A stretch of 64,000 nucleotides of DNA from Eledone cirrhosa (lineage: Eukaryota), in contig OZ024741.1 in NCBI GenBank assembly GCA_964016885.1, positions 190,898,001-190,962,000 on the forward strand, written 5' to 3'. The position numbers were made by a program, and so were the translations under genes. Shown in pieces: positions 3,001 to 62,300 of the stretch; within the stretch, counting starts at the first letter, position 1; every line of letters starts with the position of its first letter. A model generated the notes under the pieces. The model searched no databases. It was not told where the DNA came from and saw nothing but the letters and a program-made list of their open reading frames with translations.

Positions 3001-6000
3001 TGTTACCTGGTGGTTTGTCTGTATGGTAAATTGTCATATATGTTACCTGGTGGTTTGTCTGGATGGTAAAGTGTCATATATGTTACCTGGTGGTTTGTCT
3101 GGATGGTAAAGTGTCATATATGTTACCTGGTGGTTTGTCTGGATGGTAAAGTGTCATATATGTTACCTGGTGGTTTGTCTGGATGGTAAAGTGTTATATA
3201 TGTTACCTGGTAGTTTGTCTGGATGGTAAAGTGTCATATATGTTACCTGGTGGTTTGTCTGGATGGTAAAGTGTTATATATGTTACCTGGTGGTTTGTCT
3301 GGATGGTAAAGTGTTATATATGTTACCTGGTAGTTGGTCTGGATGGTAAAGTGTCATATAAGTTACCTGGTGGTTTGTCTGGATGGTAAAGTGTCATATA
3401 TGTTACCTGGTGGTTTGTCTGGATGGTAAAGTGTCATATATGTTACCTGGTGGTTTGTCTGGATGGTAAAGTGTCATATATGTTACCTGGTGGTTCGTCT
3501 GGATTGTAAAGTGTCATATATGTTACCTGGTAGTTTGTCTGGATGGTTAAGTTACCTGGTGGTTTGTCTGAATGGTAAAGTGTTATATATGTTACCTGGT
3601 AGTTTGTCTGGATGGTAAAGTTACCTGGTAGTTTGTCTGGATGGTAAAGTTACCTGGTGGTTTGTCTGGAAGGTAAAGTGTCATATAAGTTACCTGGTAG
3701 TTTGTCTGGATGGTAAAGTTACCTGGTAGTTTGTCTGGATGGTAAAGTGTTATATACGTTACCTGGTAGTTTGTCTGGATGGTAAAGTGTCATATAAGTT
3801 ACCTGGTGGATTGTCTGGATGGTAAAGTGTCATATATGTTACCTGGTGGTTTGTCTGGATGGTAAAGTGTCATATATGTTACCTGGTGGTTTGTCTGGAT
3901 GGTAAAGTGTCATATATGTTACCTGGTAGTTTGTCTGGATGATAAAGTGTTATATATGTTACCTGGTGGTTTGTCTGAATGGTAAAGTTACCTGGTGGTT
4001 TGTCTGGATGGTAAAGTGTTATATATGTTACCTGTTAGTTTGTCTGGATGGTAAAGTTACCTGGTAGTTTGTCTGGATGGTAAAGTTACCTGGTGGTTTG
4101 TCTGGAAGGTAAAGTGTCATATAAGTTACCTGGTAGTTTGTCTGGATGGTAAAGTTACCTGGTAGTTTGTCTGGATGGTAAAGTGTTATATATGTTACCT
4201 GTTGGTTTGTCTGGATGTTAAAGTGTCATACATGTTACCTGGTGGTTTGTCTGGATGGTAAAGTGTCATACATTTTACCTGGTGGGTTGTCTGGATGGTA
4301 AAGTGTTATATATGTTACCTGGTAGTTTGTCTGGATGGTAAAGTGTCATATAAGTTACCTGGTGGTTTGTCTGGATGGTAAAGTGTCATATATGTTACCT
4401 GGTGGTTTGTCTGGATGGTAAAGTGTCATATATGTTACCTGGTAGTTTGTCTGGATGGTAAAGTGTTATATATGTTACCTGGTGGTTTGTCTGGATGGTA
4501 AAGTGTCATATATGTTACCTGGTAGTTTGTCTGGATGGTAAAGTGTCATATATGTTACCTGGTAGTTTGTCTGGATGGTAAAGTGTCATATATGTTACCT
4601 GGTAGTTTGTCTGGATGGTAAAGTGTCATATATGTTACCTGGTAGTTTTTCTGGATGGTAAAGTGTCATATATGTTACCTGGTGGTTTGTCTGGATGGTA
4701 AAGTGTCATATATGTTACCTGGTGGTTCGTCTGGATGGTAAAGTGTCATATATGTTACCTGGTAGTTTGTCTGGATGGTTAAGTTACCTGGTGGTTTGTC
4801 TGAATGGTAAAGTGTTATATATGTTACCTGGTAGTTTGTCTGGATGGTAAAGTTACCTGGTAGTTTGTCTGGATGGTAAAGTTACCTGGTGGTTTGTCTG
4901 GAAGGTAAAGTGTCATATAAGTTACCTGGTAGTTTGTCTGGATGGTAAAGTTACCTGGTAGTTTGTCTGGATGGTAAAGTGTTATATATGTTACCTGGTA
5001 GTTTGTCTGGATGGTAAAGTGTCATATAAGTTACCTGGTGGTTTGTCTGGATGGTAAAGTGTCATATATGTTACCTGGTGGTTTGTCTGGATGGTAAAGT
5101 GTCATATATGTTACCTGGTGGTTTGTCTGGATGGTAAAGTGTCATATATGTTACCTGGTAGTTTGTCTGGATGATAAAGTGTTATATATGTTACCTGGTG
5201 GTTTGTCTGAATGGTAAAGTTACCTGGTGGTTTGTCTGGATGGTAAAGTGTTATATATGTTACCTGGTAGTTTGTCTGGATGGTAAAGTTACATGGTAGT
5301 TTGTCTGGATGGTAAAGTTACCTGGTGGTTTGTCTGGAAGGTAAAGTGTCATATAAGTTACCTGGTAGTTTGTCTGGATGGTAAAGTTACCTGGTAGTTT
5401 GTCTGGATGGTAAAGTGTTATATATGTTACCTGTTGGTTTGTCTGGATGTTAAAGTGTCATACATGTTACCTGGTGGTTTGTCTGGATGGTAAAGTGTCA
5501 TACATGTTACCTGGTGGGTTGTCTGGATGGTAAAGTGTTATATATGTTACCTGGTAGTTTGTCTGGATGGTAAAGTGTCATATAAGTTATCTGGTGGTTT
5601 GTCTGGATGGTAAAGTGTCATATATGTTACCTGGTGGTTTGTCTGGATGGTAAAGTGTCATATATGTTACCTGGTAGTTTGTCTGGATGGTAAAGTGTTA
5701 TATATGTTACCTGGTGGTTTGTCTGGATGGTAAAGTGTCATATATGTTACCTGGTAGTTTGTCTGGATGGTAAAGTGTCATATATGTTACCTGGTAGTTT
5801 GTCTGGATGGTAAAGTGTCATATATGTTACCTGGTAGTTTGTCTGGATGGTAAAGTGTCATATATGTTACCTGGTAGTTTTTCTGGATGGTAAAGTGTCG
5901 TATATGTTACCTGGTAGTTTGTCTGGATGGTAAAGTGTCATATATGTTACCTGGTGGTTTGTCTGGATGGTAAAGTGTCATATAAGTTACCTGGTGGATT

Positions 6001-30000: not shown

Positions 30001-33000
30001 GGTAAAGTGTTATATATGTTACCTGGTTATTTGTCTGGATGGTAAAGTGTCATATATGTTACCTGGTGGTTTGTCTGGATGGTAAAGTGTCATACATGTT
30101 ACCTGGTGGTTTGTCTGGATGGTAAAGTTACCTGGTGGTTTGTCTGGATGGTAAAGTGTCATATATGTTACCTGGTGGTTTGTCTGGAAGGTAAAGTGTC
30201 ATATAAGTTACCTGATAGTTTGTCTGGATGGTAAAGTGTCATATATGTTACCTGGTGGTTTGTCTGGATGGTAAAGTGTCATATATGTTACCTGGTGGTT
30301 TGTCTGGAAGGTAAAGTGTCATATAAGTTACCTGGCAGTTTGTCTGGATGGTAAAGTTACCTGCTGGTTTGTTTGGAAGGTAAAGTGTCATATATGTTAT
30401 CTGGTGGTTTGTCTGGATGGTAAAGTGTCATATATGTTACCTGGTGGTTTGTCTGGATGGTAAAGTGTCATATATGTTACCTGGTGGTTTGTCTGGATGG
30501 TAAAGTGTCATATATGTTACCTGGTGGTTTGTTTGGATGGTAAAGTGTAATACATGTTACCTGGTGGTTTGTCTGTATGGTAAAGTGTCATATATGTTAC
30601 CTGGTGGTTTGTCTGGATGGTAAAGTGTAATACATGTTACCTGGTGGTTTGTCTGTATGGTAAAGTGTCATATATGTTACCTGGTGGTTTGTCTGGATGG
30701 TAAAGTGTCATATATGTTACCTGGTGGTTTGTCTGGATGGTAAAGTGTCATATATGTTACCTGGTAGTTTGTCTGGATGGTTAAATTACCTGGTGGTTTG
30801 TCTGGATGGTAAAGTGTCATATATGTTACCTGGTAGTTTGTCTGGATGGTAAAGTGTCATATAAGTTACCTGGTGGTTTGTCTGGATGGTAAAGTGTCAT
30901 ATATGTTACCTGGTGGTTTATCTGGATGGTAAAGTGTCATATATGTTACCTGGTGGTTTGTCTGGATGGCAAAGTGTCATATATGTTACCTGGTGGTTTG
31001 TCTGGATGGTAAAGTGTCATATATGTTACCTGGTAGTTTGTCTGGATGGTTAAGTTACCTGGTGGTTTGTCTGGATGGTAAAGTGTCATATATGTTACCT
31101 GGTGGTTTGTCTGGATGGTAAAGTGTCATATATGTTACCTGGTAGTTTGTCTGGATGGTAAAGTGTTATATATGTTACCTGGTGGTTTGTCTGGATGGTA
31201 AAGTTACCTGGTGGTTTGTCTGGATGGTAAAGTGTTATATATGTTACCTGGTAGTTTGTCTGGATGGTAAAGTTACCTGGTAGTTTGTCTGGATGGTAAA
31301 GTTACCTGGTGGTTTGTCTGGATGGTAAAGTGTTATATATGTTACCTGGTAGTTTGTCTGGATGGTAAAGTGTTATATATGTTACCTGTTGGTTTGTCTG
31401 GATGTTAAAGTGTCATACATGTTACCTGGTCGTTTGTCTGGATGGTAAAGTGTCATACATGTTACCTGGTGGGTTGTCTGGATGGTAAAGTGTTATATAT
31501 GTTACCTGGTAGTTTGTCTGGATGGTAAAGTGTCATATAAGTTACCTGGTGGTTTGTCTGGATGGTAAAGTGTCATATATGTTACCTGGTAGTTTGTCTG
31601 GATGGTAAAGTGTCATATATGTTACCTGGTAGTTTATCTGGATGGTAAAGTGTCATATATGTTACCTGGTGGTTTGTCTGGATGGTAAAGTGTCATATAT
31701 GTTACCTGGTGGTTTGTCTGGATGGTAAAGTGTCATATATGTTACCTGGTGGTTTGTCTGGATGGTAAAGTGTCATATAAGTTACCTGGTGGTTTGTTTG
31801 GATGGTAAAGTGTTATATATGTTACCTGGTAGTTTGTCTGGATGGTAAAGTGTCATATATGTTACCTGGTGGTTTGTCTGGATGGTAAAGTGTCATACAT
31901 GTTACCTGGTGGTTTGTCTGGATGGTAAAGTTACCTGGTGGTTTGTCTGGATGGTAAAGTGTCATATATGTTACCTGGTGGTTTGTCTGGAAGGTAAAGT
32001 GTCATATAAGTTACCTGATAGTTTGTCTGGATGGTAAAGTGTCATATATGTTACCTGGTGGTTTGTCTGGATGGTAAAGTGTCATATATGTTACCTGGTG
32101 GTTTGTCTGGAAGGTAAAGTGTCATATAAGTTACCTGGCAGTTTGTCTGGATGGTAAAGTTACCTGCTGGTTTGTTTGGAAGGTAAAGTGTCATATATGT
32201 TATCTGGTGGTTTGTCTGGATGGTAAAGTGTCATATATGTTACCTGGTGGTTTGTCTGGATGGTAAAGTGTCATATATGTTACCTGGTGGTTTGTCTGGA
32301 TGGTAAAGTGTCATATATGTTACCTGGTGGTTTGTTTGGATGGTAAAGTGTAATACATGTTACCTGGTGGTTTGTCTGTATGGTAAAGTGTCATATATGT
32401 TACCTGGTGGTTTGTCTGGATGGTAAAGTGTCATATATGTTACCTGGTGGTTTGTCTGGAAGGTAAAGTGTCATATAAGTTACCTGGCAGTTTGTCTGGA
32501 TGGTAAAGTTACCTGCTGGTTTGTTTGGAAGGTAAAGTGTCATATATGTTATCTGGTGGTTTGTCTGGATGGTAAAGTGTCATATATGTTACCTGGTGGT
32601 TTGTCTGGATGGTAAAGTGTCATATATGTTACCTGGTGGTTTGTCTGGATGGTAAAGTGTCATATATGTTACCTGGTGGTTTGTTTGGATGGTAAAGTGT
32701 AATACATGTTACCTGGTGGTTTGTCTGTATGGTAAAGTGTCATATATGTTACCTGGTGGTTTGGCTGGATGGTAAAGTGTCATATATGTTACCTGGTGGT
32801 TTGTCTGGATGGTAAAGTGTCATATATGTTACCTGGTGGTTTGTCTGGATGGTAAAGTGTCATATATGTTACCTGGTGGTTTGTCTGGATGGTAAAGTGT
32901 CATATATGTTACCTGGTGGTTTGTCTGGATGGTAAAGTGTCATATATGTTACCTGGTGGTTTGTCTGGATGGTAAAGTGTCATATATGTTACCTGGTGGT

Positions 33001-36000
33001 TTGTGTGGATGGTAAAGTGTCATATATGTTACCTGGTGGTTTGTCTGGATGGTAAAGTGTTATATATGTTACCTGGTAGTTTGTCTGGATGGTAAAGTGT
33101 CATATATGTTACCTGGTGGTTTGTGTGGATGGTAAAGTGTTATATATGTTACCTGGTAGTTTGTCTGGATGGTAAAGTGTCATATATGTTACCTGGTGGT
33201 TTGTCTGGATGGTAAAGTGTTATATATGTTACCTGGTAGTTTGTCTGGATGGTAAAGTGTCATATAAGTTACCTGGTGGTTTGTCTGGATGGTAAAGTGT
33301 CATATATGTTACCTGGTGGTTTGTCTGGATGGTAAAGTGTCATATATGTTACCTGGTGGTTTGTCTGGATGGTAAAGTGTCATATATGTTACCTGGTGGT
33401 TTGTCTGGATGGTAAAGTGTCATATATGTTACCTGGTAGTTTGTCTGGATGGTTAAATTACCTGGTGGTTTGTCTGGATGGTAAAGTGTCATATATGTTA
33501 CCTGGTAGTTTGTCTGGATGGTAAAGTGTCATATAAGTTACCTGGTGGTTTGTCTGGATGGTAAAGTGTCATATATGTTACCTGGTGGTTTATCTGGATG
33601 GTAAAGTGTCATATATGTTACCTGGTGGTTTGTCTGGATGGCAAAGTGTCATATATGTTACCTGGTGGTTTGTCTGGATGGTAAAGTGTCATATATGTTA
33701 CCTGGTAGTTTGTCTGGATGGTTAAGTTACCTGGTGGTTTGTCTGGATGGTAAAGTGTCATATATGTTACCTGGTGGTTTGTCTGGATGGTAAAGTGTCA
33801 TATATGTTACCTGGTAGTTTGTCTGGATGGTAAAGTGTTATATATGTTACCTGGGGGTTTGTCTGGATGGTAAAGTTACCTGGTGGTTTGTCTGGATGGT
33901 AAAGTGTTATATATGTTACCTGGTAGTTTGTCTGGATGGTAAAGTTACCTGGTAGTTTGTCTGGATGGTAAAGTTACCTGGTGGTTTGTCTGGATGGTAA
34001 AGTGTTATATATGTTACCTGGTAGTTTGTCTGGATGGTAAAGTGTTATATATGTTACCTGTTGGTTTGTCTGGATGTTAAAGTGTCATACATGTTACCTG
34101 GTCGTTTGTCTGGATGGTAAAGTGTCATACATGTTACCTGGTGGGTTGTCTGGATGGTAAAGTGTTATATATGTTACCTGGTAGTTTTTCTGGATGGTAA
34201 AGTGTCATATAAGTTACCTGGTGGTTTGTCTGGATGGTAAAGTGTCATATATGTTACCTGGTAGTTTGTCTGGATGGTAAAGTGTCATATATGTTACCTG
34301 GTAGTTTATCTGGATGGTAAAGTGTCATATATGTTACCTGGTGGTTTGTCTGGATGGTAAAGTGTCATATATGTTACCTGGTGGTTTGTCTGGATGGTAA
34401 AGTGTCATATATGTTACCTGGTGGTTTGTCTGGATGGTAAAGTGTCATATAAGTTACCTGGTGGTTTGTTTGGATGGTAAAGTGTTATATATGTTACCTG
34501 GTAGTTTGTCTGGATGGTAAAGTGTCATATATGTTACCTGGTGGTTTGTCTGGATGGTAAAGTGTCATACATGTTACCTGGTGGTTTGTCTGGATGGTAA
34601 AGTTACCTGGTGGTTTGTCTGGATGGTAAAGTGTCATATATGTTACCTGGTGGTTTGTCTGGAAGGTAAAGTGTCATATAAGTTACCTGATAGTTTGTCT
34701 GGATGGTAAAGTGTCATATATGTTACCTGGTGGTTTGTCTGGATGGTAAAGTGTCATATATGTTACCTGGTGGTTTGTCTGGAAGGTAAAGTGTCATATA
34801 AGTTACCTGGCAGTTTGTCTGGATGGTAAAGTTACCTGCTGGTTTGTTTGGAAGGTAAAGTGTCATATATGTTATCTGGTGGTTTGTCTGGATGGTAAAG
34901 TGTCATATATGTTACCTGGTGGTTTGTCTGGATGGTAAAGTGTCATATATGTTACCTGGTGGTTTGTCTGGATGGTAAAGTGTCATATATTTTACCTGGT
35001 GGTTTGTCTGGATGGTAAAGTGTCATATATTTTACCTGGTGGTTTGTCTGGATGGTAAAGTGTCATATATGTTACCTGGTGTTTTGTCTGGATGGTAATG
35101 TGTCATATATGTTACCTGGTGGTTTGTCTGGATGGTAAAGTGTCATATATGTTACCTGGTGGTTTGTCTGGATGGTAAAGTGTTATATAGGTTACCTGGT
35201 AGTTTGTCTGGATGGTAAAGTGTCATATATGTTACCTGGTGGTTTGTCCGGATGGTAAAGTGTTATATATGTTACCTGGTAGTTTGTCTGGATGGTAAAG
35301 TGTCATATAAGTTACCTGGTGGTTTGTCTGGATGGTAAAGTGTCATATATGTTACCTGGTGGTTTGTCTGGATGGTAAAGGGTCATATATGTTACCTGGT
35401 GGTTTGTCTGGATGGTAAAGTGTCATATATGTTACCTGGTGGTTTGTCTGGATGGTAAAGTGTCATATATGTTACCTGGTAGTTTGTCTGGATGGTTAAG
35501 TTACCTGGTGGTTTGTCTGGATGGTAAAGTGTCATATATGTTACCTGGTGGTTTGTCTGGATGGTAAAGTGTCATATATGTTACCTGGTAGTTTGTCTGG
35601 ATGGTAAAGTGTTATATATGTTACCTGGTGGTTTGTCTGGATGGTAAAGTTACCTGGTGGTTTGTCTGGATGGTAAAGTGTTATATATGTTACCTGGTAG
35701 TTTGTCTGGATTGTAAAGTTACCTGGTAGTTTGTCTGGATGGTAAAGCTACCTGGTGGTTTGTCTGGAAGGTAAAGTGTCATATAAGTTACCTGGTAGTT
35801 TGTCTGGATGGTAAAGTTACCTGGTTGTTTGTCTGGATGGTAAAGTTACCTGGTGGTTTGTCTGGATGGTAAAGTGTTACATATGTTACCTGGTAGTTTG
35901 TCTGGATGGTAAAGTGTTATATATGTTATCTGTTGGTTTGTCTGGATGTTAAAGTGTCATACATGTTACCTGGTGGTTTGTCTGGATGGTAAAGTGTCAT

Positions 36001-37476
36001 ACATGTTACCTGGTGGTTTGTCTGGAAGGTAAAGTGTTATATATGTTACCTGGTGGTTTGTCTGGATGGTAAAGTGTTATATATGTTACCTGGTGGTTTG
36101 TCTGGATGGTAAAGTGTCATATAAGTTACCTAGTGGTTTGTCTGGATGGTAAAGTGTCATATATGTTACCTGGTGGTTTGTCTGGATGGTAAAGTGTCAT
36201 ATATGTTACCTGGTGGTTTGTCTGGATGGTAAAGTGTCATATATATTACCTGGTAGTTTGTCTGGATGGTTAAGTTACCTGGTGGTTTGTCTGGATGGTA
36301 AAGTGTCATATATGTTACCTGGTGGTTTGTCTGGATGGTAAAGTGTCATATATGTTACCTGGTAGTTTGTCTGGATGGTAAAGTGTTATATAGTTACCTG
36401 GTGGTTTGTCTGGATGGTAAAGTGTCATATATGTTACCTGGTGGTTTGTCTGGATGGTAAAGTGTCATATAAATTTACCTGATAGTTTGTCTGGATGGTA
36501 AAGTGTCATATATGTTACCTGGTGGTTTGTCTGGATGGTAAAGTGTCATATATGTTACCTGGTAGTTTGTCTGGATGGTTAAGTTACCTGGTGGTTTGTC
36601 TGGATGGTAAAGTGTCATATATGTTACCTGGTGGTTTGTCTGGATGGTAAAGTGTCATATATGTTACCTGGTAGTTTGTCTGGATGGTAAAGTGTTATAT
36701 AGTTACCTGGTGGTTTGTCTGGATGGTAAAGTTACCTGGTGGTTTGTCTGGATGGTAAAGTGTTATATATGTTACCTGGTAGTTTGTCTGGATTGTAAAG
36801 TTACCTGGTAGTTTGTCTGGATGGTAAAGTTACCTGGTGGTTTGTCTGGAAGGTAAAGTGTCATATAAGTTACCTGGTAGTTTGTCTGGATGGTAAAGTT
36901 ACCTGGTTGTTTGTCTGGATGTTAAAGTTACCTGGTGGTTTGTCTGGATGGTAAAGTGTTATATATGTTACCTGGTAGTTTGTCTGGATGGTAAAGTGTT
37001 ATATATGTTACCTGTTGGTTTGTCTGGATGTTAAAGTGTCATATCTGTTACCTGGTGGTTTGTCTGGAAGGTAAAGTGTCATATAAGTTACCTGGTGGTT
37101 TGTCTGGATGGTAAAGTGTTATATATGTTACCTGGTGGTTTGTCTGGATGGTAAAGTGTCATACACGTTACCTGGTGGTTTGTCTGTATGGTAAAGTGTC
37201 ATATATGTTACCTGGTGGTTTGTCTGGATGGTAAAGTGTCATATATGTTACCTGGTGGTTTGTCTGGATGGTAAAGTGTCATATAAGTTACCTAGTGGTT
37301 TGTCTGGATGGTAAAGTGTCATATATGTTACCTGGTGGTTTGTCTGGATGGTAAAGTGTCATATAAATTTACCTGATAGTTTGTCTGGATGGTAAAGTGT
37401 TATATATGTTACCTGGTGGTTTGTCTGGATGGTAAAGTGTCATATAAGTTACCCTGTGGTTTGTCTGGATGGTAAA
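1..37476. repeat. 40-bp tandem satellite array with an interspersed 29-bp deletion monomer; runs off the left edge of the window
   Basis: Consensus GATGGTAAAGTGTCATATATGTTACCTGGTGGTTTGTCTG repeats head-to-tail without interruption. The short monomer is GATGGTAAAGTTACCTGGTRGTTTGTCTG (11-nt deletion). Roughly 950-1000 monomers by length estimate. Sharp end at ...ggatggtaaa|ctgccatag. Confidence 0.99.
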
Positions 37477-37917
37477 CTGCCATAGTTTTCAACATATTTA
37501 TAAATCAAAGATATTCCAGTCATTGGTAATTCCTTCTTTTATTTCAGATTTAGTATATATAGAATTACATTACCTAATATTAATATGTCCTTCCTTTTTT
37601 AAGACAATAGGACATGATTTGAGGAGGCTTTGATTACTATTGCTAGCAGGTCGAGTGACTGCACAGAGGATTCCTCATTGGCTCCTGTTGTTCTGGTTGA
37701 CGATGTGTTTAATTTTATGTGTGCATTCATGTATGTGCATATGTATGCATGTATGCATGTATGTATGCATGTGATGCATGTATGAGTACTTGAATGCTTA
37801 CACATGTATGTGTGCATGTGCCTGTGAATATATACATGTGTGTATGTTTGTGAAGTTTCACTCGTTAACTGTTAATGATTAACTAAAACTTAATAATTTA
37901 ATTTTTATATTTTAAAG

Positions 37918-38020
37918 TTTCAATGAATTCCTTCTAAAATGTCCACATCTTGGCAGACTTTCCCACATTCAAATCGGCCATGACAATACTGGATTTTGCC
38001 CAGGATGGTACCTCGATAAG
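37918..38020 (+). CDS. Internal coding exon of a PLAT/LH2-domain protein (LOXHD1-like or another PLAT protein)
   Basis: Acceptor ttttatattttaaAG|, then 1 nt + 34 codons: FNEFLLKCPHLGRLSHIQIGHDNTGFCPGWYLDK, matching the PLAT motif LGxLxxIxIGHDNxGxxPGWxLDxV. Similarity stops at AAG|GCAAGA (GC-type donor). Absent from the ORF track. Confidence 0.85.
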
Positions 38021-47134: not shown

Positions 47135-47209
<75 letters not shown>

Positions 47210-47507
47210 ATGATATTAAATAAATGGAAAACTAAATTTATAAAACCATATTTATTCTATTATATATATTTCAAGGGTACCAACATTTTGGTACGCTATC
47301 ATCAGATAAAATACGAAGTGTGTTTTATAAATTTTGACATAACCAAGGAGAATATACCTTAACGGTTCAAGATTTCCTTGGATAGTGAAGGGATAAGAGA
47401 AGAAAAGTCAGATATTTCAAATTATTAAGATGAGTATGCAAATGAGGTTTATGTAAATGGGCTGAAAAAAACGTTATTTTAGACGCTATGGAAAATTTAA
47501 ATAATTG

Positions 47508-47686
47508 TTTCTACTTTAGGTACAAGGCCAGCAATTACCCAGTGCATTACTGGCACTTTATTTTATCGACCCCGTAAGGATGAAAGGCAAAGTCAACCTC
47601 GGCGGGATTTGAACTCAGATCGTAAAGGGATGTAACTATGCTGGAAAGCATGGGGTCCGACCCTCTACCGATACTGCCAATCCACC
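47508..47686 (-). mobile_element. tRNA-derived SINE nested in the PLE 3' UTR
   Basis: Close reverse complement of 58744-58918. Confidence 0.9.
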
Positions 47687-48704
47687 AATTATGATAAGTT
47701 ATTGTATGCGTAGGAAAGAAGAGCTAGCATTTACGTTAATTCGGGAAAAAAAAATGATTCCAGAGTTTAAATTTAAATTTATTTACCTATATTATGAGTT
47801 ATAATATTGTATATATAATCAATTAGATTATCTGAAGAATTATGGTTGTAAGTATTTTTATCTTATTATATTATGATAGGTTATATGTATATAAATACCA
47901 TATAGATTAATAATTGCGTATTATAGAGATAGAGATAATTTACAATTATTAGTTGTTTATATATCAAATATGAGTTACGAAGGAAGTTGATTTTGTATTT
48001 TACTTAAAAATAGGTGGTTCAAATTGTGAGAGTAGAACAATTTGTGGATTCAAAATTTTGTTCAACATTGAAAATGTTTTCAGAATATTGTTAATTTAGC
48101 GAAGTTATATAGATTACCAAACATAATATGTTTATGTTTGCACGATTGAGAAAGGAAAGATAACTCCAATTTTTTTTTTGTTAACCGTTAAATTTGATGA
48201 GTGATTTACTCCAAAATATATAGAGAAAATTATATATTATTTTATGTGAGATCCATTATTTCAGTCGAAAGATGTGTGAATGTTTGAATAACAAAAAGAG
48301 AGAGGAAAAATGTAATGCGCTTTTCGAAGATCTATCATTAAGAGGATAAATTTTCAGAATGTCATTTAAAGATTATCAATCTACATCTAGAAAATATATT
48401 TAGAGGACTGTCCTTAGAAAAATAATGTCAGAATTAAAAATAATTTCAGAATTAAAATAATGTCGGAAATTAAAATATTAATATATATATTAAAAATATT
48501 ATAAATATTAGAGATATTAAAAAATTTAGAAATATTAAAAATATTAAAATATAAAAAATATAAAAAATATAAAAAATATAAAAAATATAAAAAATATAAA
48601 AAATATAAAAAATATAAAAAATATAAAAAATATTAAAAATATTAAAAAAATTTACATTTAAATTTTAAAAAAGGTAAGATCATTTTGAAGGTGTATAGGA
48701 ATAT

Positions 48705-49905
48705 TATAAATTAAAAATAGTTCTGAACGTGGAATTTTGGCGATGTCTGCAAGAAGAAAATAATTTTGTTCTGAGATTAATAGAGTTTTGACAGTTAATT
48801 ATATAAAAAAATTTCTTCGATACACAATTTACAGAATCTTGATAAAGCCATATTTCGGTATGCAGGTGCTTTCGAAATCGTTCTCCACGATATTGAATAG
48901 TCTATATTGTTGTCTTTTAAATTCCAAATTAGATGTGAAAGTGAAGTAGAAGATTTTTTATCAGATCTCTTAAATGTATGATTATGGTTATTCCAGCGTT
49001 CTTTAAATTTTGTTGAAGTGGCACCAACATAGTTAAACATTTTGTCACTAGTTTTAACTGTGCATTTATAAACTACGTTTTTGTCTAAACAATTATTTTG
49101 TAATGGGCAGTTTGATTTGATTCTACAGTTACATTTACGGGAGTTATTGTTGTTCAGAACGGTACTATTATTCTGAATATTGTTGTTAGAAATATTATTA
49201 TTGCTATTTTGGCTAGTTTGGTTAGGGTTTAAATTTAAGTTTCTTTTATTAATTCTATTTATATTTTGTGCTATGTTCATAGTAATAGAGGAGGATAGTT
49301 TTATAGTGTGTCTTTTAAAAATAGAGTGGTATCTGTGGACTTTAGGAAAACATTTATCTAGTGCTTTAAAGAATAGCTTTGCTAAAGGTGTTTTAACGCT
49401 AAAGGTGTTTTAACGCTAAAGGTGTTTTAACGCTTAATGAGAATGGGTGAGAGTACCAAATAATATTTCTAGTTCTAGTTTTTTTGTTTGGTTTGGTGTT
49501 TAAGTTAATACTAGGATGATATGTCATGTTATTGTTATCTATGTAATTAATTCTAGTTGAGTATCCTGCTCTATGTAAAGCTTCATTATAATATTCAGCC
49601 TTCTCATCAAAAATATTTTTATTAGCGGAGATGCGTGAAATCCGTTGTTGGACGCTATTGACAATAGTGTTTTTAATACTTCTAGGATAATTAGAATTGA
49701 AACTTACATAATTTAGATTTTCGTTAATTTTATGGAAAGGATAGTAAAGACCTGTTCTAAGAAGTTAACGATTTGGTAGTTATTTTTATTTCTAACTTAA
49801 GATTGTAGCTGTTGAAAAATTGTATTATGGATTTTCTTTTCCTATTAATTTCACTATTGCTATGGTTTTCAATTAGAAGCAACATACCGTCACGATATAA
49901 ACCTC
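48705..49905 (-). pseudogene. Disrupted PLE ORF: RT palm/thumb plus GIY-YIG endonuclease
   Basis: Minus strand: GLYRDG (degenerate YRDD), YYPFHKINENLNYVSFNSNYP...QRISRISAN...YNEALHRAGY, RNIIWYSHPFS, then CNCRIKSNCPLQNNC-VVYKC...YVGATSTKFKERWNNH...FCKLC and, after a frameshift, NLRTKLFSSCRH. A 17-bp unit triplicated at 49381-49431 breaks the frame. Confidence 0.92.
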
Positions 49906-50032
49906 TGCATACTCATCTTAATAATTTGAAATATCTGACTTTTCTTCTCTTATCCCTTCACTATCCAAGGAAAACTTGAACCGTTAAGGTATATTCTCCT
50001 TGGTTATGTCAAAATTTATAAAACACACTTCG

Positions 50033-50093
50033 TATTTTATCTGATGATAGCGTACCAAAATTTTGGTACCCTTGAAATATATATAATAGAATA
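50033..50093 (+). ncRNA. Minimal type I hammerhead ribozyme (mirror copy on the - strand at about 47253-47313)
   Basis: tattttat-CTGATGA-tagcgtacca aaattt tggtaccctt-GAAAT-atat-ATA-atagaata; 8-bp stem I with one GU pair, palindromic loop III. Confidence 0.82.
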
Positions 50094-50230
50094 AATATGG
50101 TTTTATAAATTTAGTTTTCCATTTATTTAATATCATTGTATATTATACTCCAGAAAACTTGTCGAATGCTCTGAATCAATTATAAACATTTATATTTGCT
50201 GAATTACCACCAAATTGAATATCCCTTCTG

Positions 50231-50290: not shown

Positions 50291-50669
50291 TAGCGTATTT
50301 TGCAATACACTGTATGCTTAATTAAAAGCATTTTGAAGACCTTATGCTATTGTTTTAAAGTAGTGACTATGTCGCTTACTTCTATTTTCAGCAAACAAGG
50401 GGAGATGAGCTGACATAGCGCGGTTTCGTACTGTTGGTACTTATCAAAGCCTAGCACTCCTCCTGTTTGCTGCAAATTATGAATGTTGGATTCTTATAGA
50501 ATTCCAGTAATAATCAGGAACTGATTATACAGAGCAGTTGCCGGTCCAGCAAAAAATGGAAATTAGAATTGGTGCTCTGAAATAGCGATATATATATATG
50601 AATGTATATATAGTGTATTTTGAAATACACTGTATGCTTAATTAAAAGCATTTTGAAGACTTTACGCTA
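50288..50669 (-). mobile_element. Non-coding 320-bp unit with about 60-bp terminal direct repeat and a variant hammerhead (retrozyme-like)
   Basis: 50291-50349 repeats at 50611-50669 (offset 320). Long hairpin 50389-50472 encloses, on the minus strand, ggct-TTGATAA-gtac caaca gtac-GAAAC-cgcgctat-GTC-agct. (TA)n on both sides. Confidence 0.6.
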
Positions 50670-50815: not shown

Positions 50816-52716
50816 TGGTCATCCGGATAGTAAACCAAGTATTACAGAATGGGGTCATACCAAATGACTGGCGTAGCAGCATCATCGTTAACTGGTACAA
50901 GGGTAAAGGAGATGCTCTAGATAGGGGAAACTATAGAGTTAGTTGACCAGGTCATGAAGGTCACAGAAAGAGTTATAGCACAACTAATCAGAGATCGAAT
51001 TGATCTAGATGAAATGCAGTTTGGGTTTGTGTCAGGTAAAAGTACCACAGATGCTCTTTTCCTTGTACGACGACTAGAGAAGTACCTAGCTAAAAGTAAA
51101 CCCCTCTACTTAGCTTTTGTTGACTTGGAGAAAGCCTTTGACAGAGTCCCACGCTCCATTAAAAAGGGGCCCTTAAAAAGCTAGGAGCAGATTAATGGCT
51201 TGTGAGAGCTATACAAGCCATGTATAAAGATACAGTCAGCAAGGTTAGAATTAACAATGAATATAGTGAAGAATTTAGCGTAAACGTTGGTGTTCATCAA
51301 GGCTCTGTCCTTAACCCCCTGCTGTCTATTATGGCCTTTCAGGGTATAACAGATGAGTTTAAGACCTGCTGCCCATGGGAACTTCTATATGCAGATGATC
51401 TAACTCTCATAGCTGAATCTATTGCTGAACTAGAAAGGAAATTCCAAACATGGAAGCATGGCCTAGAATCAAAAGGCCTTAAAGTTAACTTGTCTAAGAC
51501 TAAAGTTCTAGTATGTAGAAAGGAAAATAGGGCACAGATGGCCTCTGGGAAATGGCCATGCTCAGTATGTAGGAAAGGAGTATGTAGAAATTCCATTCTA
51601 TGTCCCAAATGCAAACTATGGGTACATAAAAGATGTAGTGGGATCACAGGCAAGCTATCTAAGAACGTACATTTTATATGCGGCCGATGCTCAGGTGCAA
51701 TAAGTAGCCAGTGCCCACAGGATACTAGCTTCTTCTACTGCCCAGATGGTTCTATAGAAATAGTAGACACTTTCCGTTACCTGGGTGACAAAATCAGCAG
51801 TGGTGGAGGGTGCTCTGAAAGTACAGTAGCCAGAGTTAGAACAGGAGGGAAAAAGTTCAGAGAGCTTATACCATTGTTGGCCACAAAAGGTTTCTCTCTA
51901 AAAATGAAAGGCAGATTGTATGATGCTTGTATACGAACAGCAATGGTACATGGCAGTGAGACATGAGCATTGTGTGCAGAGGACCAGCGCAGACTGGAAA
52001 GGAACCAAGCATGCATGCACCGTTGGATGTGTAATAGTAATGTACATGAACGGCAAAACATAAATGAACTAAATGAGAAATGAAGAATAAGAGGGATCAG
52101 ATGCTGTTTACTTGAGAGAAGATTACATTGGTATGGTCACGTGATGCGCATGAAAGACGATAGCTGTATAAAAAAGTGCAGGGCAATCAAAATTGATGGT
52201 AGGCCCAGAAAAACCTGGGATGACATGATCAATTCTGACCTTGCACACTTACACAATGTCACTGGATCGAGATCTCTGGCATCACACAGTAATACAGAAG
52301 ACCTGCCTTCTACGTGCAAATTTAACCTACAGTCAGTAGGCCCCTCCAACCCAAACATACACCCCAACCAACTAACCCTACTCCATCCTCCCACTCCCAC
52401 CAACACCACCCTTTCTCTGTAAAGTTATGTTGGTACCACAACACCCAGTCCAAACTAATGAGGTCGTGTAGGTGTCACGACAAATAAACACACAGTCCAC
52501 GCTGTAATATGGCCGTGTAGGTAACACGGTAAAAAGCTCCCAGTCCACACTGTAAATGTGGTTGGTGTTAGGAGGGCATCCAACCGTAGAAAACCTGCCA
52601 GATAGTCCTATACGAGCGAGACACGGTCACCCGACCAATCTTGCCTCAAGTGGGACAATTGAGCGTCTAACCCATGTTAGCATGGAAGATAGACGTTAAG
52701 CTATGATGATGATGAT
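50816..52716 (+). mobile_element. 5'-truncated, disrupted RTE-clade LINE (RT domain, Cys-rich insert, 3' UTR, (GAT)n tail)
   Basis: Motifs QFGF, LYLAFVDLEKAFDRV, GVHQGSVLNP, LLYADD, GLKVNLSKTKV, FRYLG and RLHWYGHVMR, with several stops and frameshifts; starts right after (TA)n. Confidence 0.96.
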
Positions 52717-52728
52717 ATATATATATAT

Positions 52729-53532
52729 AACGAAGGAAGTGTGGTAAGGAACCAGATGGACCATAACGCACCAGAGTACTCAATACTTAGGGTAGTAGAG
52801 TGGGTAATAGCAAAATGTTTAACCTCGACGGCGTGGTAATAAATAGCCGAACTTTTCAAGGGGTAATTCCTTATATGGGAAGATTGTAGTTGTCAAAAGG
52901 ATTGGTAAAAATTTCTTGTAAACACAATTAAGTCATTCTTGGTGGTAGGTGGGAGGTGGGGTGGCTGAACTTACCTGTAGAATAATGAGGGAGTGGGTGG
53001 AGCCGATCAAGCATTGAAAGTGAATTCTATACAGCAAATTCTAAGGAGTGTCTATGAGATTATGCTAGGTAGAAAGCAGGCGAAAAAAATTCTGGGGGAA
53101 TATGAGAGTGGAACGTTATAAAGTTAAAAGGTTATTAAATTGAGATTAAAAGATAATAAATAAAAAATAATAAAAAAATGTTTAGTAGTAACAAATAATA
53201 AAAAAAATCTCTAGAGTCTAAAGCAGCTGCTATATTTTTAGCTGGTATTGCGTTTTCGGCCAATGCTATATAGAATTTACTGGGGTGGGGGTACAGAGGC
53301 TACAAAAGCCCGATGGGCTGCCTCAGGGTAGGCGAAAGAGGAACAGGAAAAGAAAGGGGAGAGGGAGTGGGAGGAAGTGAAAAGAAGAGATAAAGGGAAA
53401 AAGAAAAGAAGTACATCTTGAATTACCCCTTGAAAAGTTCGGCTATTTAATACCACGCTAAAAATTCTAATTTAGTTCAGAAATAGCCGTCGAAACGACT
53501 TGAGCTCTGCCGTCGGGGTTAAAGATTTTCCT
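52729..53532 (+). mobile_element. Fold-back pLTR element with variant-core hammerhead; same family as 57991-58180
   Basis: 52831-52870 is inverted relative to 53420-53458, and 52809-52832 relative to 53509-53533. The tail 52729-52808 is near-identical to 57992-58070. TA runs on both sides. Confidence 0.8.
53425..53519 (+). ncRNA. Type I hammerhead ribozyme with U3-A8 core
   Basis: ACCCC-TTGAAAA-gttcggctattt...aaatagccgtc-GAAAC-gacttgagctctgcc-GTC-GGGGT; 5-bp stem I, 9-bp stem II, 3-4 bp stem III. Confidence 0.65.
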
Positions 53533-53845
53533 ATATATATATATATTTGAAATAAAAAAGGAAAAGAATGACTTCACTTGTATTGTTAAATAATTTGATT
53601 TAATTTTATAATATTATGAGTTGGTAGATCTAGTAAGTTCTTTGTTAACTTCGGTGGGAAGAATTTTAAAGATTCCTGGTTAACTTTGTTGGAGAACTTT
53701 CTCGCATTCGTCGGTGGCGATTGTCAAACTGAGATCAGGTTGTGTTGAGATGTGTGACTATATATATAAGAGAGATTTGGATGTGTCTGGGGTGTGGGGT
53801 GTGGTGTTAATGAGTGTTGATGAAGATTTGGAGGAATTAAAGCAT

Positions 53846-54038: not shown

Positions 54039-54399
54039 AGTAGAAGGGGTATTTAATTTATTGGAAGTCTGACAAATATAAATGTTTATAACAAATTTAG
54101 AGCACTCAACATATTACTGGAGTAAATATTCAATGATATTAAATGAATGGAAACTATATTTATAAAACCATATTTATTTTATTATATATATATTTCAAGG
54201 GTACCAAGACACATTGGTACGCTTTCATCTGATAAAATACAAAGTTTGTTTTTTAAATAGAGACATACCCATGAAAATCATACCTTATCGGTTGGATATT
54301 CACTGGATAGTGGAAATATATTAGGGATTATTCAAACTTATGTGTGAATATGCAAATGAATATGTAAATAATTTTAAAACAACCGTTTATTTAAACGAC

Positions 54400-54479
<80 letters not shown>

Positions 54480-55600
54480 ATAAGAGGAGAAGGATAAAAT
54501 AGTGCGAGAGAGAGAGAAGAAGAAGAAAGAATCAAGAGAAGATGAATAAAAACTCATATAACGTTAATTTGAGGGAAATATATTCTAAGCATATATCTTA
54601 ATAGTACGTGTATTTACGATTATTAGTTGTTTAAAATTTGTTTATAATATAATATTTTTCTTCTGTTATAAGTAGATAAATAAATAAATAAATACATAAA
54701 TAAATAAATGGGTATATCATGTTATAGATAATTTTTCTAATGAGTTATGAGGGATATTGGTTTTGCATTTAATGTAAATAAATATTAAGTTAAATTAAAT
54801 TAAATTAACTGAGTTAATAAGAGTATTTATATTTATATGATTTAAAATGGGAAGATACGGAAAAAACTCCGGTTTAATTTATTTATTCGTTAGTGTGAGA
54901 CTATTTAGTCAAAATAAGTATAGATGTTGAAACATACATTTAGCCAGAATCAGTTAGTGGTTATAAATCTATTGAAAAATATTGAAAAAATATTGATAAA
55001 GTATTGAAAAAATATTGAAAAAGTATTGAAAAAATATTGAAAAATTTGAGAAAAAAAAAAATTTATAAGAGATAAGTAATTTTTAAAGAAATAAAAATTA
55101 AAGAAATAAAAATAAAGAAATAAAAATTATCAAAATTAAAATTAAAATTAAAATTAAAATTAAAATTAAAATTAAAATTAAAATTAAAATTAAAATAAAA
55201 AAAAAAGATTAGAATTATATACGTATATATTTTATGAAACTTTAAGAAGTGGAATTACAGCAAATGTTATAGTTATTATGATTTAGAGGTATCATTATAT
55301 TAAAACCAAGTGGATGAGATTGTTATGGAAATAAGTAGAAATATTATAAGTATAATTATAAGTTATATAGTTCTGAATGTTGAATCCTGGCGATGTCTAC
55401 AAGAATTAAATAAATTCGTTCTTAGATTATTAGAGTTTTTACATTTAACTATGAAAAATATTTCCTCAATACACAATTTTCAGAATCTAGATAAAGTTGT
55501 GTTTCGGTACACGGGTGCTTTTGAAACTTTCCATATTCTTGCATTTTACGTTATCCCTCATAACTCATTAGAAAAATTATCTATAACATGATATACCCAT

Positions 55601-55655
<55 letters not shown>

Positions 55656-56152
55656 TGTATTCATTTATTTATTTATCGACTTATAACAGAAGAAAAATAT
55701 TATATTATAAACAAATTTTAAACAACTAATAATCGTAAATACACGTACTATTAAGATATATACTTAGAATATATTTCCATCAAATTAACGTTATATGAGT
55801 TTTTATTCATCTTCTCTTGTTTCTTTCCTCTCTCTCGCACTATTTTAACCTTCTCCTCTTATCTCTTCTCTCTCTCCATAGTCGTTTAAATAAACGGTTG
55901 TTTTTCAATTAGTTACATATTCATTTGCATATTCGCACATAAGTTTGAAAAATCCCTAATATATTTCCACTATCCAGTGAATATCCAACCGATAAGGTAT
56001 AATTTTCATGGGTATGTCTCTATTTATAAAACAAACTTTGTATTTTATCTGATGAAAGCGTACCAATGTGTCTTGGTACTCTTGAAATATATATATAATA
56101 AAATAAATATGGTTTTATAAATATAGTTTCGATTCATTTAATATCATTGAAT
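54039..56152 (-). mobile_element. Second Penelope-like element (related subfamily): about 600-bp inverted arms and GIY-YIG C-terminal remnant
   Basis: Arms 54128-54756 and 55552-56152; tail 54039-54127 homologous to 50140-50233. Minus strand 55370-55533 reads SKAPVYRNTTLSRF*KLCIEEIFFIVKCKNSNNLRTNLFNSCRH. Hammerhead CTGATGA...GAAAT at 56049-56088. Confidence 0.9.
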
Positions 56153-57855: not shown

Positions 57856-58428
<573 letters not shown>

Positions 58429-58918: not shown

Positions 58919-59311
58919 AATATTGTATAAGGAAAGGTACGAACGAAGTCAAAAGGTACTCAGAGTTGGAAAATTCTTGATACAGTTTCCTGTCTTCTGC
59001 TGATTATTTTCTTGGGAACAGGTCTAAAAAAAGCTGGAAACATTTAGCTATGGTGTATGCCGCACACCAAAAGAACAAATAAGGAAAAAGTGAAAAAAAA
59101 CTGTGCTATATACATGGAAGAACACAGTATATATATGTGTGTGTGTGTATATATGTGGTGTGTGTAGTATACACTATATAAGGACTATTATACTGTAGCA
59201 TATATAAGTAGGAACTACATGGAAACATACTATAATGAAACAACTGTAATATGATAAAACTGATTAAATATCAATATTCAGTGATTTATTCTCCATCACT
59301 TTTGTAGTTTA

Positions 59312-62300
59312 CTGGTTATATATTTAGTAAATGACATATATGTGTATTGTCTGTATGTGTATGTGCCTGAAAGTATCTATCTGTGTGTGCTGGTTATATA
59401 ATTAGTAGATGACATATATGTGTATTGTCTATATGTGTATGTGCCTGAACGTATCTGTATGTGTGCTGGTTATATATTTAGTAGATGACATATATGTGTA
59501 TTGTCTATATGTGTATGTGCCTGAATGTATCTATGTGTGCTGGTTATATATTTAGTAGATGACATATATGTGTATTGTCTGTATGTGTATGTGCCTGAAT
59601 GTATCTGTATGTGTGCTGGTTATATATTTAGTAGATGACATATATGTGTATTGCCTGTATGTGTATGTGCCTGAATGTATCTGTATGTGTGCTGGTTATA
59701 TATTTAGTAGATGACATATATGTGTATTGTCTGTATGTGTATGTGCTTGAATGTATCTGTATGTGTGCTGGTTATATATTTAGTAAATGACATATATGTG
59801 TATTGTCTGTATGGGTATGTGCCTGAATGTATCTGTATGTGTGCTGGTTATATATTTAGTAAATGACATATATGTGTATTGTCTGTATGTGTATGTGCTT
59901 GAATGTATCTGTATGTGTGCTGGTTATATATTTAGTAAATGACATATATGTGTATTGTCTGTATGTGTATGTGCCTGAAAGTATCTGTATGTGAGCTGGT
60001 TATATATTTAGTAAATGACATATACGTGTATTGTCTGTATGTGTATGTGCCTGAATGTATCTGTATGTGTGCTGGTTATATATTTAGTAAATGACATATA
60101 TGTGTATTGTCTGTATGTGTATGTGCCTGAATGTATCTGTATGTGTGCTGGTTATATATTTAGTAGATGACATATATGTGTATTGTCTGTATGTGTATGT
60201 GTCTGAATGTATCTGTATGTGTGATGGTTATATATTTAATAGATGACATATATGTGTATTGTCTGTATGTGTATGTGCCTGAATGTATCTGTATGTGTGC
60301 TGGTTATATATTTAGTAAATGACATATATGTGTATTGTCTGTATGTGTATGTGCCTGAATGTATCTGTATGTGTGCTGGTTATATATTTAGTAAATGACA
60401 TATATGTGTATTGTCTGTATGTGTATGTGCCTGAAAGTATCTGTATGTGTGCTGGTTATATATTTAGTAGATGACATATATGTGTATTGTCTGTATATGT
60501 GTATGTGTCTGAATGTATCTGTATGTGTGCTGGTTATATATTTAGTAGATGACATATATGTGTATTGTCTATATGTGTATGTGCCTGAATGTATCTGTAT
60601 GTGTGCTGGTTATATATTTAGTAGATGACATATATGTGTATTGTCTATATGTGTATGTGCCTGAATGTATCTGTATGTGTGCTGGTTATATATTTAGTAA
60701 ATGACATATATGTGTATTGTCTGTATGTGTATGTGCCTGAATGTATCTGTATGTGTGCTGGTTATATATTTAGTAGATGACATATATGTGTATTGTCTGT
60801 ATGTGTATGTGCCTGAAAGTATGTGTATGTGTGCTGGTTATATATTTAGTAAATGACATATATATGTATTGTCTGTATGTGTATGTGCCTGAAAGTATCT
60901 GTATGTGTGCTGGTTATATATTTAGTAGATGACATATATGTGTATTGTCTGTATGTGTATGTGCCTGAAAATATCTGTATGTGTGCTGGTTATATATTTA
61001 GTAGATGACATATATGTGTATTGTCTGTATGTGTATGTGCCTGAATGTATCTGTATGTGTGCTGGTTATATATTTAGTAAATGACATATATGTGTATTGT
61101 CTGTATGTGTATGTGCCTGAAAGTATCTGTATGTGTGCTGGTTATATATTTAGTAGATGACATATATGTGTATTGTCTGTATATGTGTATGTGTCTGAAT
61201 GTATCTGTATGTGTGCTGGTTATATATTTAGTAGATGACATATATGTGTATTGTCTATATGTGTATGTGCCTGAATGTATCTGTATGTGTGCTGGTTATA
61301 TATTTAGTAGATGACATATATGTGTATTGTCTATATGTGTATGTGCCTGAATGTATCTGTATGTGTGCTGGTTATATATTTAGTAAATGACATATATGTG
61401 TATTGTCTGTATGTGTATGTGCCGGAATGTATCTGTATGTGTGCTGGTTATATATTTAGTAGATGACATATATGTGTATTGTCTGTATGTGTATGTGCCT
61501 GAAAGTATGTGTATGTGTGCTGGTTATATATTTAGTAAATGACATATATGTGTATTGTCTGTATGTGTATGTGCCTGAAAGTATCTGTATGTGTGCTGGT
61601 TATATATTTAGTAAATGACATATATGTGTATTGTCTGTATGTGTATGTGCCTGAAAGTATCTGTATGTGAGCTGGTTATATATTTAGTAAATGACATATA
61701 TGTGTATTGTCTGTATGTGTATGTGCCTGAATGTATCTGTATGTGTGCTGGTTATATATTTAGTAAATGACATATATGTGTATTGTCTGTATGTGTATGT
61801 GCCTGAATGTATCTGTATGTGTGCTGGTTATATATTTAGTAAATGACATATATGTGTATTGACTGTATGTGTATGTGCCTGAATGTATCTGTATGTCTGC
61901 TGGTTATATATTTAGTAGATGACATATATGTGTATTGTCTGTATGTGTATGTGCCTGAAAGTATCTGTATGTGTGCTGGTTATATATTTAGTAGATGACA
62001 TATATGTGTATGTGTCTGAATCTATCTGTATGTGTGCTGGTTATATATTTAGTAAATGACATATATGTGTATTGTCTGTATGTGTATGTGCCTGAATGTA
62101 TCTGTATGTGTGCTGGTTATATATTTAGTAAATGACATATATGTGTATTCTCTGTATGTGTATGCGCCTGAATGTATCTGTATGTCTGCTGGTTATATAT
62201 TTAGTAGATGACATATATGTGTATTGTCTGTATGTGTATGTGCCTGAAAGTATCTGTATGTGTGCTGGTTATATATTTAGTAGATGACATATATGTGTAT

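What the first reader, a model, noticed from the sequence alone, without database searches (positions are those of the whole stretch)
53425..53519. Second U3-A8 hammerhead in an unrelated fold-back family
All elements of a type I hammerhead are present (stem I ACCCC/GGGGT, stem II cggctattt/aaatagccg, GAAAC, stem III, GTC), but the core is TTGAAAA. The inverted arm (ttttcaa at about 52853-52859) has the same core, so the variant predates the insertion. Two different families within 3 kb carrying the same compensatory U3-A8 pair suggest an under-counted class of variant-core ribozymes in this genome.
Basis: partly seen in the sequence, partly recalled or inferred. Interest (0 to 1): 0.75.

Follow-up and report, generated by a model that had tools for sequence, protein, structure and literature searches.

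The report
Variant hammerhead in Penelope retrotransposon end
The motif is a real hammerhead-ribozyme shape at the end of a very common Penelope-type jumping gene, and its unusual U-A core pair is already in print for such elements; this particular copy is predicted to misfold, and a sister lineage spread widely with that core pair broken, so self-cutting is likely not needed for copying.

Summary
Observation confirmed. 53425-53519 is a type I hammerhead with core UUGAAAA (U3-A8) and a predicted cut after 53514. It lies in the inverted, truncated end repeat (pLTR) of a Penelope-like retrotransposon inserted in (TA)n. Intact relatives encode a 719-aa protein with the Hydra-clade motifs. U3-A8 is fixed in the family (2588 of 2902 exact-flank copies) and in its youngest, tandem, intact-ORF subfamily. 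U3-A8 hammerheads in Penelope elements are published (Cervera 2014, about 1,300 in Schistosoma), so the class is not new. This copy is probably a poor ribozyme: a private stem III change and a truncated stem I put the active fold 5.7 kcal/mol above the minimum. Extras: about 1,000 sister copies carry a broken C3·A8 pair. Copies end 19 or 102 nt past the cut site, so uncut RNA is the likely template. Six of 30 5' ends fall near the cut site (suggestive only). Cleavage is untested. The scan noted U3-A8 Penelope hammerheads and this mismatch lineage before, on other DNA.

The parts
53425..53519 (+). Type I hammerhead motif, U3-A8 core
53430..53436 (+). Core box 1 (positions 3-9), U3 and A8 in place of C3 and G8
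53437..53491 (+). Long stem II: G10.1-C11.1, 2x1 internal loop, 9 bp, distal hairpin
53492..53514 (+). GAAA box, stem III with palindromic 6-nt loop motif, GUC triplet; predicted cut after 53514; private G-to-A change at 53498
53420..53534 (+). Inverted 5'-truncated arm (partial pLTR); ends 19-20 nt after the cut site (short end class), then (TA)n
52870..53418 (-). 5'-truncated 3' UTR of the Penelope-like element (no ORF left in this copy)
   Evidence: upstream in L002, L008, L061, L066 lies the endonuclease end
52715..52869 (-). 3' pLTR with internally deleted hammerhead and long tail (about +102), then (TA)n
57993..58180 (.). Short head-to-head insertion of a sister subfamily; both arms start inside stem II, so no core box 1
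50408..50452 (-). The other U3-A8 hammerhead (family C), core at 50447-50441; unrelated at DNA level

Best explanation
The motif is a type I hammerhead with a U3-A8 core in the inverted partial end repeat of a truncated Penelope-like retrotransposon with Hydra-clade protein motifs; the family's ribozyme likely cuts its own RNA after GUC slowly or with protein help, while this genomic copy is predicted to misfold and is likely a by-product of insertion. Shown: anatomy, copy numbers, 3,543-bp tandem units with an intact RT plus endonuclease ORF, insertion in (TA)n, two fixed 3' ends at about +19 and +102 from the cut site. Inferred: the element's protein nicks (TA)n and starts reverse transcription inside the RNA at these two sites, downstream of the ribozyme, so the copied ribozyme was uncut (or re-ligated); the two target ends give the head-to-head pair. 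Inferred: a U-A pair replaces C-G at 3-8 and keeps the active geometry; cutting is a minor or late event that trims tandem transcripts to unit length and is not required for insertion, which is why a lineage with a C3·A8 mismatch could still spread.
For: Element: P0003 has RWR, DKT, YRDD, CxCx5C, YIG, CxxC and CxH, and no CX2-5CxxC, the Hydra diagnostics of Craig 2021; tandem period 3,542-3,543. Core fixed: 2588 of 2902; 100 of the first 100 listed of 2145 subfamily D copies. Position 7, the free position, differs between subfamilies (A, U, G), and the older sister family X keeps U3 and mostly A8 while three stem II pairs change on both sides (read by eye). In D the hammerhead fold is the minimum-energy fold. 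3' ends: of 145 distinct copies, 70 short end, 51 long end, 12 run on into the 5' UTR, 12 other; this matches the two internal start sites of the anole element, whose ribozyme mutants still insert in vitro (Frangieh 2024). U3-A8 is described as active in vitro (Perreault 2011 citing its ref. 32). 5' ends: 6 of 30 within +2..-6 of the cut, 1.1 expected if uniform.
Against: No cleavage or expression data. Within the four close subfamilies no pair changes on both sides (0 of 19 pairs). The 5'-end cluster at the cut is matched by one at -38..-44 (7 of 30, three from one array), so RNA structure may explain both. About 1,040 copies with C3·A8 show that the pair is not strictly kept. Pfam gave no hit for the ORF pieces; clade assignment rests on motifs, not on a tree with named Hydra elements.
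Confidence: 0.8

Rival explanations
1. The whole family's hammerhead is catalytically dead; the fold is kept only as a protein-binding or reverse-transcription start structure, and U3-A8 is drift.
For: C3·A8 lineage of about 1,040 copies; all counted 3' ends lie past the cut site; ribozyme mutants of the anole element insert normally and no RNA ends were found at its cut site.
Against: In 1.18 Mb, 48 of 51 hits have a Watson-Crick 3-8 pair (33 C-G, 15 U-A), so pairing is kept across many families; U4, G5, A6, A9, GAAA and GUC are fixed in all subfamilies; 5' ends cluster near the cut.
Confidence: 0.12
2. This copy is an active, host-relevant ribozyme that cuts a host transcript running on the + strand.
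For: All core bases and stem I are intact in this copy.
Against: Active fold 5.7 kcal/mol above the minimum, ensemble share about 4e-5, against 0.07-0.36 for typical U3-A8 copies; it is one of thousands of similar copies; it sits in a pile-up of repeats; none of the 7 stop-to-stop frames of 150 aa or more in the window looked like a host gene to me (short exons not tested).
Confidence: 0.05
3. The arms are terminal inverted repeats of a fold-back DNA transposon that captured a hammerhead.
For: Inverted arms flank the element.
Against: Arm lengths vary from copy to copy, 5' ends are truncated at many places, 3' ends are fixed, and the body continues into an RT ORF.
Confidence: 0.02

Closest known systems
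U3-A8 minimal hammerheads of Schistosoma mansoni Cercyon Penelope-like elements (Cervera and de la Pena 2014, PMC4209133; parts 1-2 of 4 read)
   Same: Type I, in the pLTR, U3-A8 core, long stem II, short stem I, G10.1-C11.1, palindromic loop III, many solo and opposite-strand copies.
   Different: Here stem III has 5-6 bp and can form in a monomer; no extra base between positions 9 and 10.1; stem II is much longer; copy numbers are higher; a C3·A8 lineage exists.
Hydra clade of Penelope-like elements (Craig et al. 2021, PMC8557442; section 11, passages, and the Hydra sheet and File S2 of the supplement read)
   Same: RWK-type motif, DKT, CxCx5C linker, CxxC and CxH, C-terminal endonuclease, (TA)n target, inverted 5'-truncated copy, optional tail.
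   Different: All Hydra hammerheads listed in File S2 have a canonical CUGANGA core, including Hydra-1_Obim; unit 3.5 kb against 'generally <3 kb'; tail about 83 nt against 30-40.
PAc (Poseidon of Anolis carolinensis; Frangieh et al. 2024, PMC11167929; parts 1-2 of 4 read)
   Same: Two internal reverse-transcription start sites downstream of the hammerhead; AT-rich target; ribozyme not needed for insertion in vitro.
   Different: Poseidon clade, canonical C3-G8 core, ribozyme overlaps the ORF start; here it lies about 190 nt before the ATG.
Natural U3-A8 core variants (Perreault et al. 2011, PMC3088659; section 8 and passages read)
   Same: Same 3-8 covariation, called active in vitro.
   Different: There rare variants; here fixed in thousands of mobile copies.

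Membership tests
Type I hammerhead ribozyme | Three stems around the core, open at stem I | tested here: met
   (95% of cells paired in 9 distinct copies; slid controls 19-53%)
Type I hammerhead ribozyme | Core CUGANGA / GAAA / UH | tested here: not met
   U3 and A8 in place of C3 and G8; all other core bases present. This is the published U3-A8 variant.
Type I hammerhead ribozyme | Watson-Crick pair between 3 and 8 | tested here: met
   U-A in this copy and in 2588 of 2902 copies; not met in the C3·A8 lineage
Type I hammerhead ribozyme | Active fold is favoured | tested here: inconclusive
   Minimum-energy fold for subfamily D, +0.8 kcal/mol for A and T, +5.7 for this copy; prediction without tertiary contacts
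Type I hammerhead ribozyme | Self-cleavage after position 17 | not testable with these tools
   Only an indirect cluster of 5' ends near the site
Penelope-like element | Single ORF with RT and C-terminal GIY-YIG-type endonuclease | tested here: met
   719-aa ORF with YRDD and YIG motifs; 2027 homologues, the best with precomputed PF01541; direct Pfam scans of ORF pieces gave nothing
Penelope-like element | Tandem or partial-tandem units, inverted 5'-truncated copy, tail | tested here: met
Hydra clade | RWK, DKT, CxCx5C, CxxC/CxH, no CX2-5CxxC | tested here: met
   against the definition (RWR in place of RWK)
Hydra clade | (TA)n target | tested here: met
Hydra clade | Groups with named Hydra elements in an RT tree | not tested
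Neptune / Nematis clades | CX2-5CxxC linker | tested here: not met
   absent from P0003, and 0 of 120 homologues have it before the YIG motif; my early label 'Neptune-like' in the notes is withdrawn

The most novel reading that the evidence does not exclude
The sister lineage with core CUGAGAA (about 1,000 copies) is not a broken ribozyme but a new core variant: C3 pairs with the G one place earlier, giving a six-base box CUGAGA plus one extra A before stem II. C3 occurs as a subfamily trait only where position 7 is G. The family would then hold a natural series U3-A8, register-shifted C3-G, U3-A8 again, with insertion ends recording cuts in vivo.
Probability: 0.12. Interest if true: 0.7.

Novelty: new member of a known kind. 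Interest (0 to 1): 0.3.

Why it matters
The finding itself adds one more U3-A8 hammerhead family to a published kind, here in a Hydra-type Penelope element. Its use is practical. (1) Searches that fix CUGANGA, and Rfam here, miss roughly a quarter to a third of the type I hammerhead motifs in this genome. (2) The family offers near-identical natural ribozymes with U3-A8 and C3·A8 cores plus an intact young ORF, a ready test of the open question whether Penelope hammerheads are needed for retrotransposition.

Tried and rejected
Rfam scan: no hammerhead hit, only microsatellite-driven miRNA matches below threshold. RNA evidence: no RNA holder listed; three coded runs of one sample held contigs only and gave no information on ends. 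Pfam and PDB gave nothing useful for the ORF. Przybilski and Hammann 2007 and Lunse et al. were not held; I saw them only as cited, so rates for U3-A8 or C3·A8 are not quoted. Paper searches with no hit: hammerhead+G8A+C3U, hammerhead+G8A+compensatory+core, hammerhead+CUGAGA; hammerhead+octopus+Penelope gave only Craig 2021. These cover the open-access library only; supplements of Cervera 2014, which I did not open, may list further core variants. PMC11014351 (passages) was irrelevant. The first descriptors were too strict; one search included 3 satellite artefacts, removed by an ad hoc filter. One search used a mis-registered structure and is void; one search replaces it. The second test of 5' ends crashed and was not completed. 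The subfamily tree (29 of 35 copies, D capped at 9) does not resolve whether the C3·A8 group is ancestral to T and D; family X and the larger C3·A8 group could not be placed on it. Rejected: Neptune clade, fold-back DNA transposon, chance match.

Full report
1. Observation. The core reads U3 and A8. The minus-strand arm has the same core at 52853-52859 but lacks about 50 nt that include the GAAA box. Rfam does not detect the motif.

2. The element. The window lies in a 3.0-Gb animal genome. A DNA search gave 4114 first-look candidates, of which 40 were scored. In the 30 loci fetched, the sequence upstream of the hammerhead matches window 53418 to 52870 on the minus strand and in longer copies runs into a coding region. 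Tandem arrays with a period of 3,542-3,543 bp carry an intact 719-aa ORF. It has RWR, DKT, YRDD, CxCx5C, YIG, CxxC and CxH motifs and lacks CX2-5CxxC. These are the features that Craig et al. 2021 give for the Hydra clade of Penelope-like elements. I did not build a tree with named Hydra elements. The window copy is thus a 5'-truncated element on the minus strand (53418-52715) with an inverted partial end repeat on the plus strand (53420-53534), set in (TA)n. Craig et al. describe this layout as usual.

3. The core across the family. Patterns that fix the flanks and leave the core free found 757, 2145 and 941 copies in three disjoint flank classes. In the first two classes 2588 of 2902 have an intact U3-A8 core. 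With looser flanks only 19 copies have G8, of which 4 are canonical C3-G8 and 15 U3·G8. Subfamily D is the youngest (median divergence 1.1%, against 1.7-2.9% for the other three), holds the intact arrays, and has U3-A8 in 100 of the first 100 listed copies. Position 7 is A, U or G by subfamily. An older sister family X (138 matches) has U3 in 97 of the 100 listed and mostly A8, with 11 of 100 G8; three stem II pairs differ from this family on both sides (read by eye). So U3-A8 is likely ancestral for the group. Among the close subfamilies there is no two-sided change (0 of 19 pairs).

4. A result against strict compensation. 191 of the 757 copies have C3 with A8, and so do 90 of the first 100 listed of the 941 (counted by eye): about 1,040 copies by extrapolation. 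They have their own diagnostic bases, so they amplified in this state. On a tree of the endonuclease end they form an unresolved star between subfamily A and the T plus D clade. Either the ribozyme is dispensable, or C3 pairs with the G at position 7 in a shifted register. Searches found no paper on this in the open library.

5. How common is U3-A8 here? In 118 regions of 10 kb taken at round coordinates (1.18 Mb), my descriptor found 33 C3-G8, 15 U3-A8 (2 doubtful), 1 C3·A8 and 2 other hits; the same DNA read backwards gave 2. An ad hoc filter removed a satellite that gave 3 false hits. The U3-A8 hits lie in 11 regions and, with the 50447 family, fall into at least five families. Scaled up this is some 33,000-38,000 motifs, a rough figure from clustered counts. 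One family is a 591-bp tandem repeat with 4372 exact-flank matches, 98 of the first 100 with U3-A8. The 50447 family has 30 exact-flank matches and no BLAST similarity to the subfamily D unit. Cervera and de la Pena 2014 already report about 1,300 U3-A8 motifs beside about 2,000 canonical minimal ones in Schistosoma, and Perreault et al. 2011 report the natural covariation. The Hydra hammerheads in File S2 of Craig et al. are all canonical.

6. Mechanism. Of 145 distinct copies, 70 end about 19-23 nt after the cut site and 51 about 102-107 nt after it. The window element has one end of each kind. The copied RNA was therefore uncut, or re-ligated, at the ribozyme that was copied (inference). 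Frangieh et al. 2024 showed for an anole element that reverse transcription starts at two internal sites past the hammerhead, that core mutants still insert in vitro, and that the ribozyme needs the protein to cut. I take the same scheme as most likely here. Among 53 near-full-length D copies, 30 have a 5' boundary between +94 and -148; 6 lie within +2..-6 of the cut, against 1.1 expected if uniform (p = 7e-4). The window width was chosen after seeing the data, and a cluster of 7 lies at -38..-44 (three from one array), so this is only a hint of cleavage in vivo.

7. This copy. It has a private G-to-A change at 53498 that breaks a stem III pair, and the inversion junction removes the distal stem I. 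The hammerhead fold is 5.7 kcal/mol above the minimum (ensemble share about 4e-5), against 0.8 for typical A and T copies and 0.0 for D (one copy each, no tertiary terms). It is predicted to be a poor ribozyme. No RNA holder was listed.

8. Earlier notes of this scan, unchecked AI notes, describe U3-A8 Penelope hammerheads in this and other genomes, the 591-bp family, ends at the cut site, and a Hydra-type subfamily with a C3/A8 mismatch. I reached the subfamily, census and end results before reading them, and the Hydra assignment.

9. Verdict. Real feature, known kind: a U3-A8 type I hammerhead in a Penelope pLTR. New member; interest 0.3. The mismatch lineage is the part most worth a bench test.

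Noticed in passing
window 47207-50139; hammerheads at 47305 (-) and 50041 (+): Another Penelope-like insertion with canonical CUGAUGA cores; ORF remains at 48813-49903 (-), 36-41% identical to P0003.
   Followed up: partly
window 54128-56152; hammerhead at 56049 (+): Further head-to-head insertion with a canonical-core minimal hammerhead and an all-(UA) palindromic stem III.
   Followed up: partly
window 50840-52250 (+): Decayed non-LTR RT fragment, RTE-like by my recall (256-aa frame at 51196-51966).
   Followed up: no
L222 (G000:C1:50594500-50601500) and L203-L217: 591-bp non-coding tandem repeat with a U3-A8 hammerhead, 4372 exact-flank matches; retrozyme-like.
   Followed up: partly
census hits: All 13 plausible U3-A8 hits have G10.1-C11.1, against 8 of 33 canonical hits (counted by eye); U3-A8 may need the stronger closing pair.
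   Followed up: no
L079 (-) 3137 versus window 50447 (-): A canonical-core hammerhead resembles family C in stem I and stem III, a possible C3-G8 relative and an independent origin of U3-A8.
   Followed up: no
many loci; window 58087-58163: Short arms often start 33-50 nt before the cut site, inside stem II, as do some full-length copies: a transcription start or an RT stall; unexplained.
   Followed up: partly
Small groups with a U3·G8 wobble: 11 of 100 listed family X copies and 11 copies with the G-C-U stem II start; possible intermediates.
   Followed up: no
L317 (G000:C2:356029900-356032800): A 299-bp tandem array made from the hammerhead and 5' UTR of subfamily D, a possible retrozyme in the making.
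   Followed up: no
window 59306-59987: 76-bp minisatellite, 7 or more copies.
   Followed up: no
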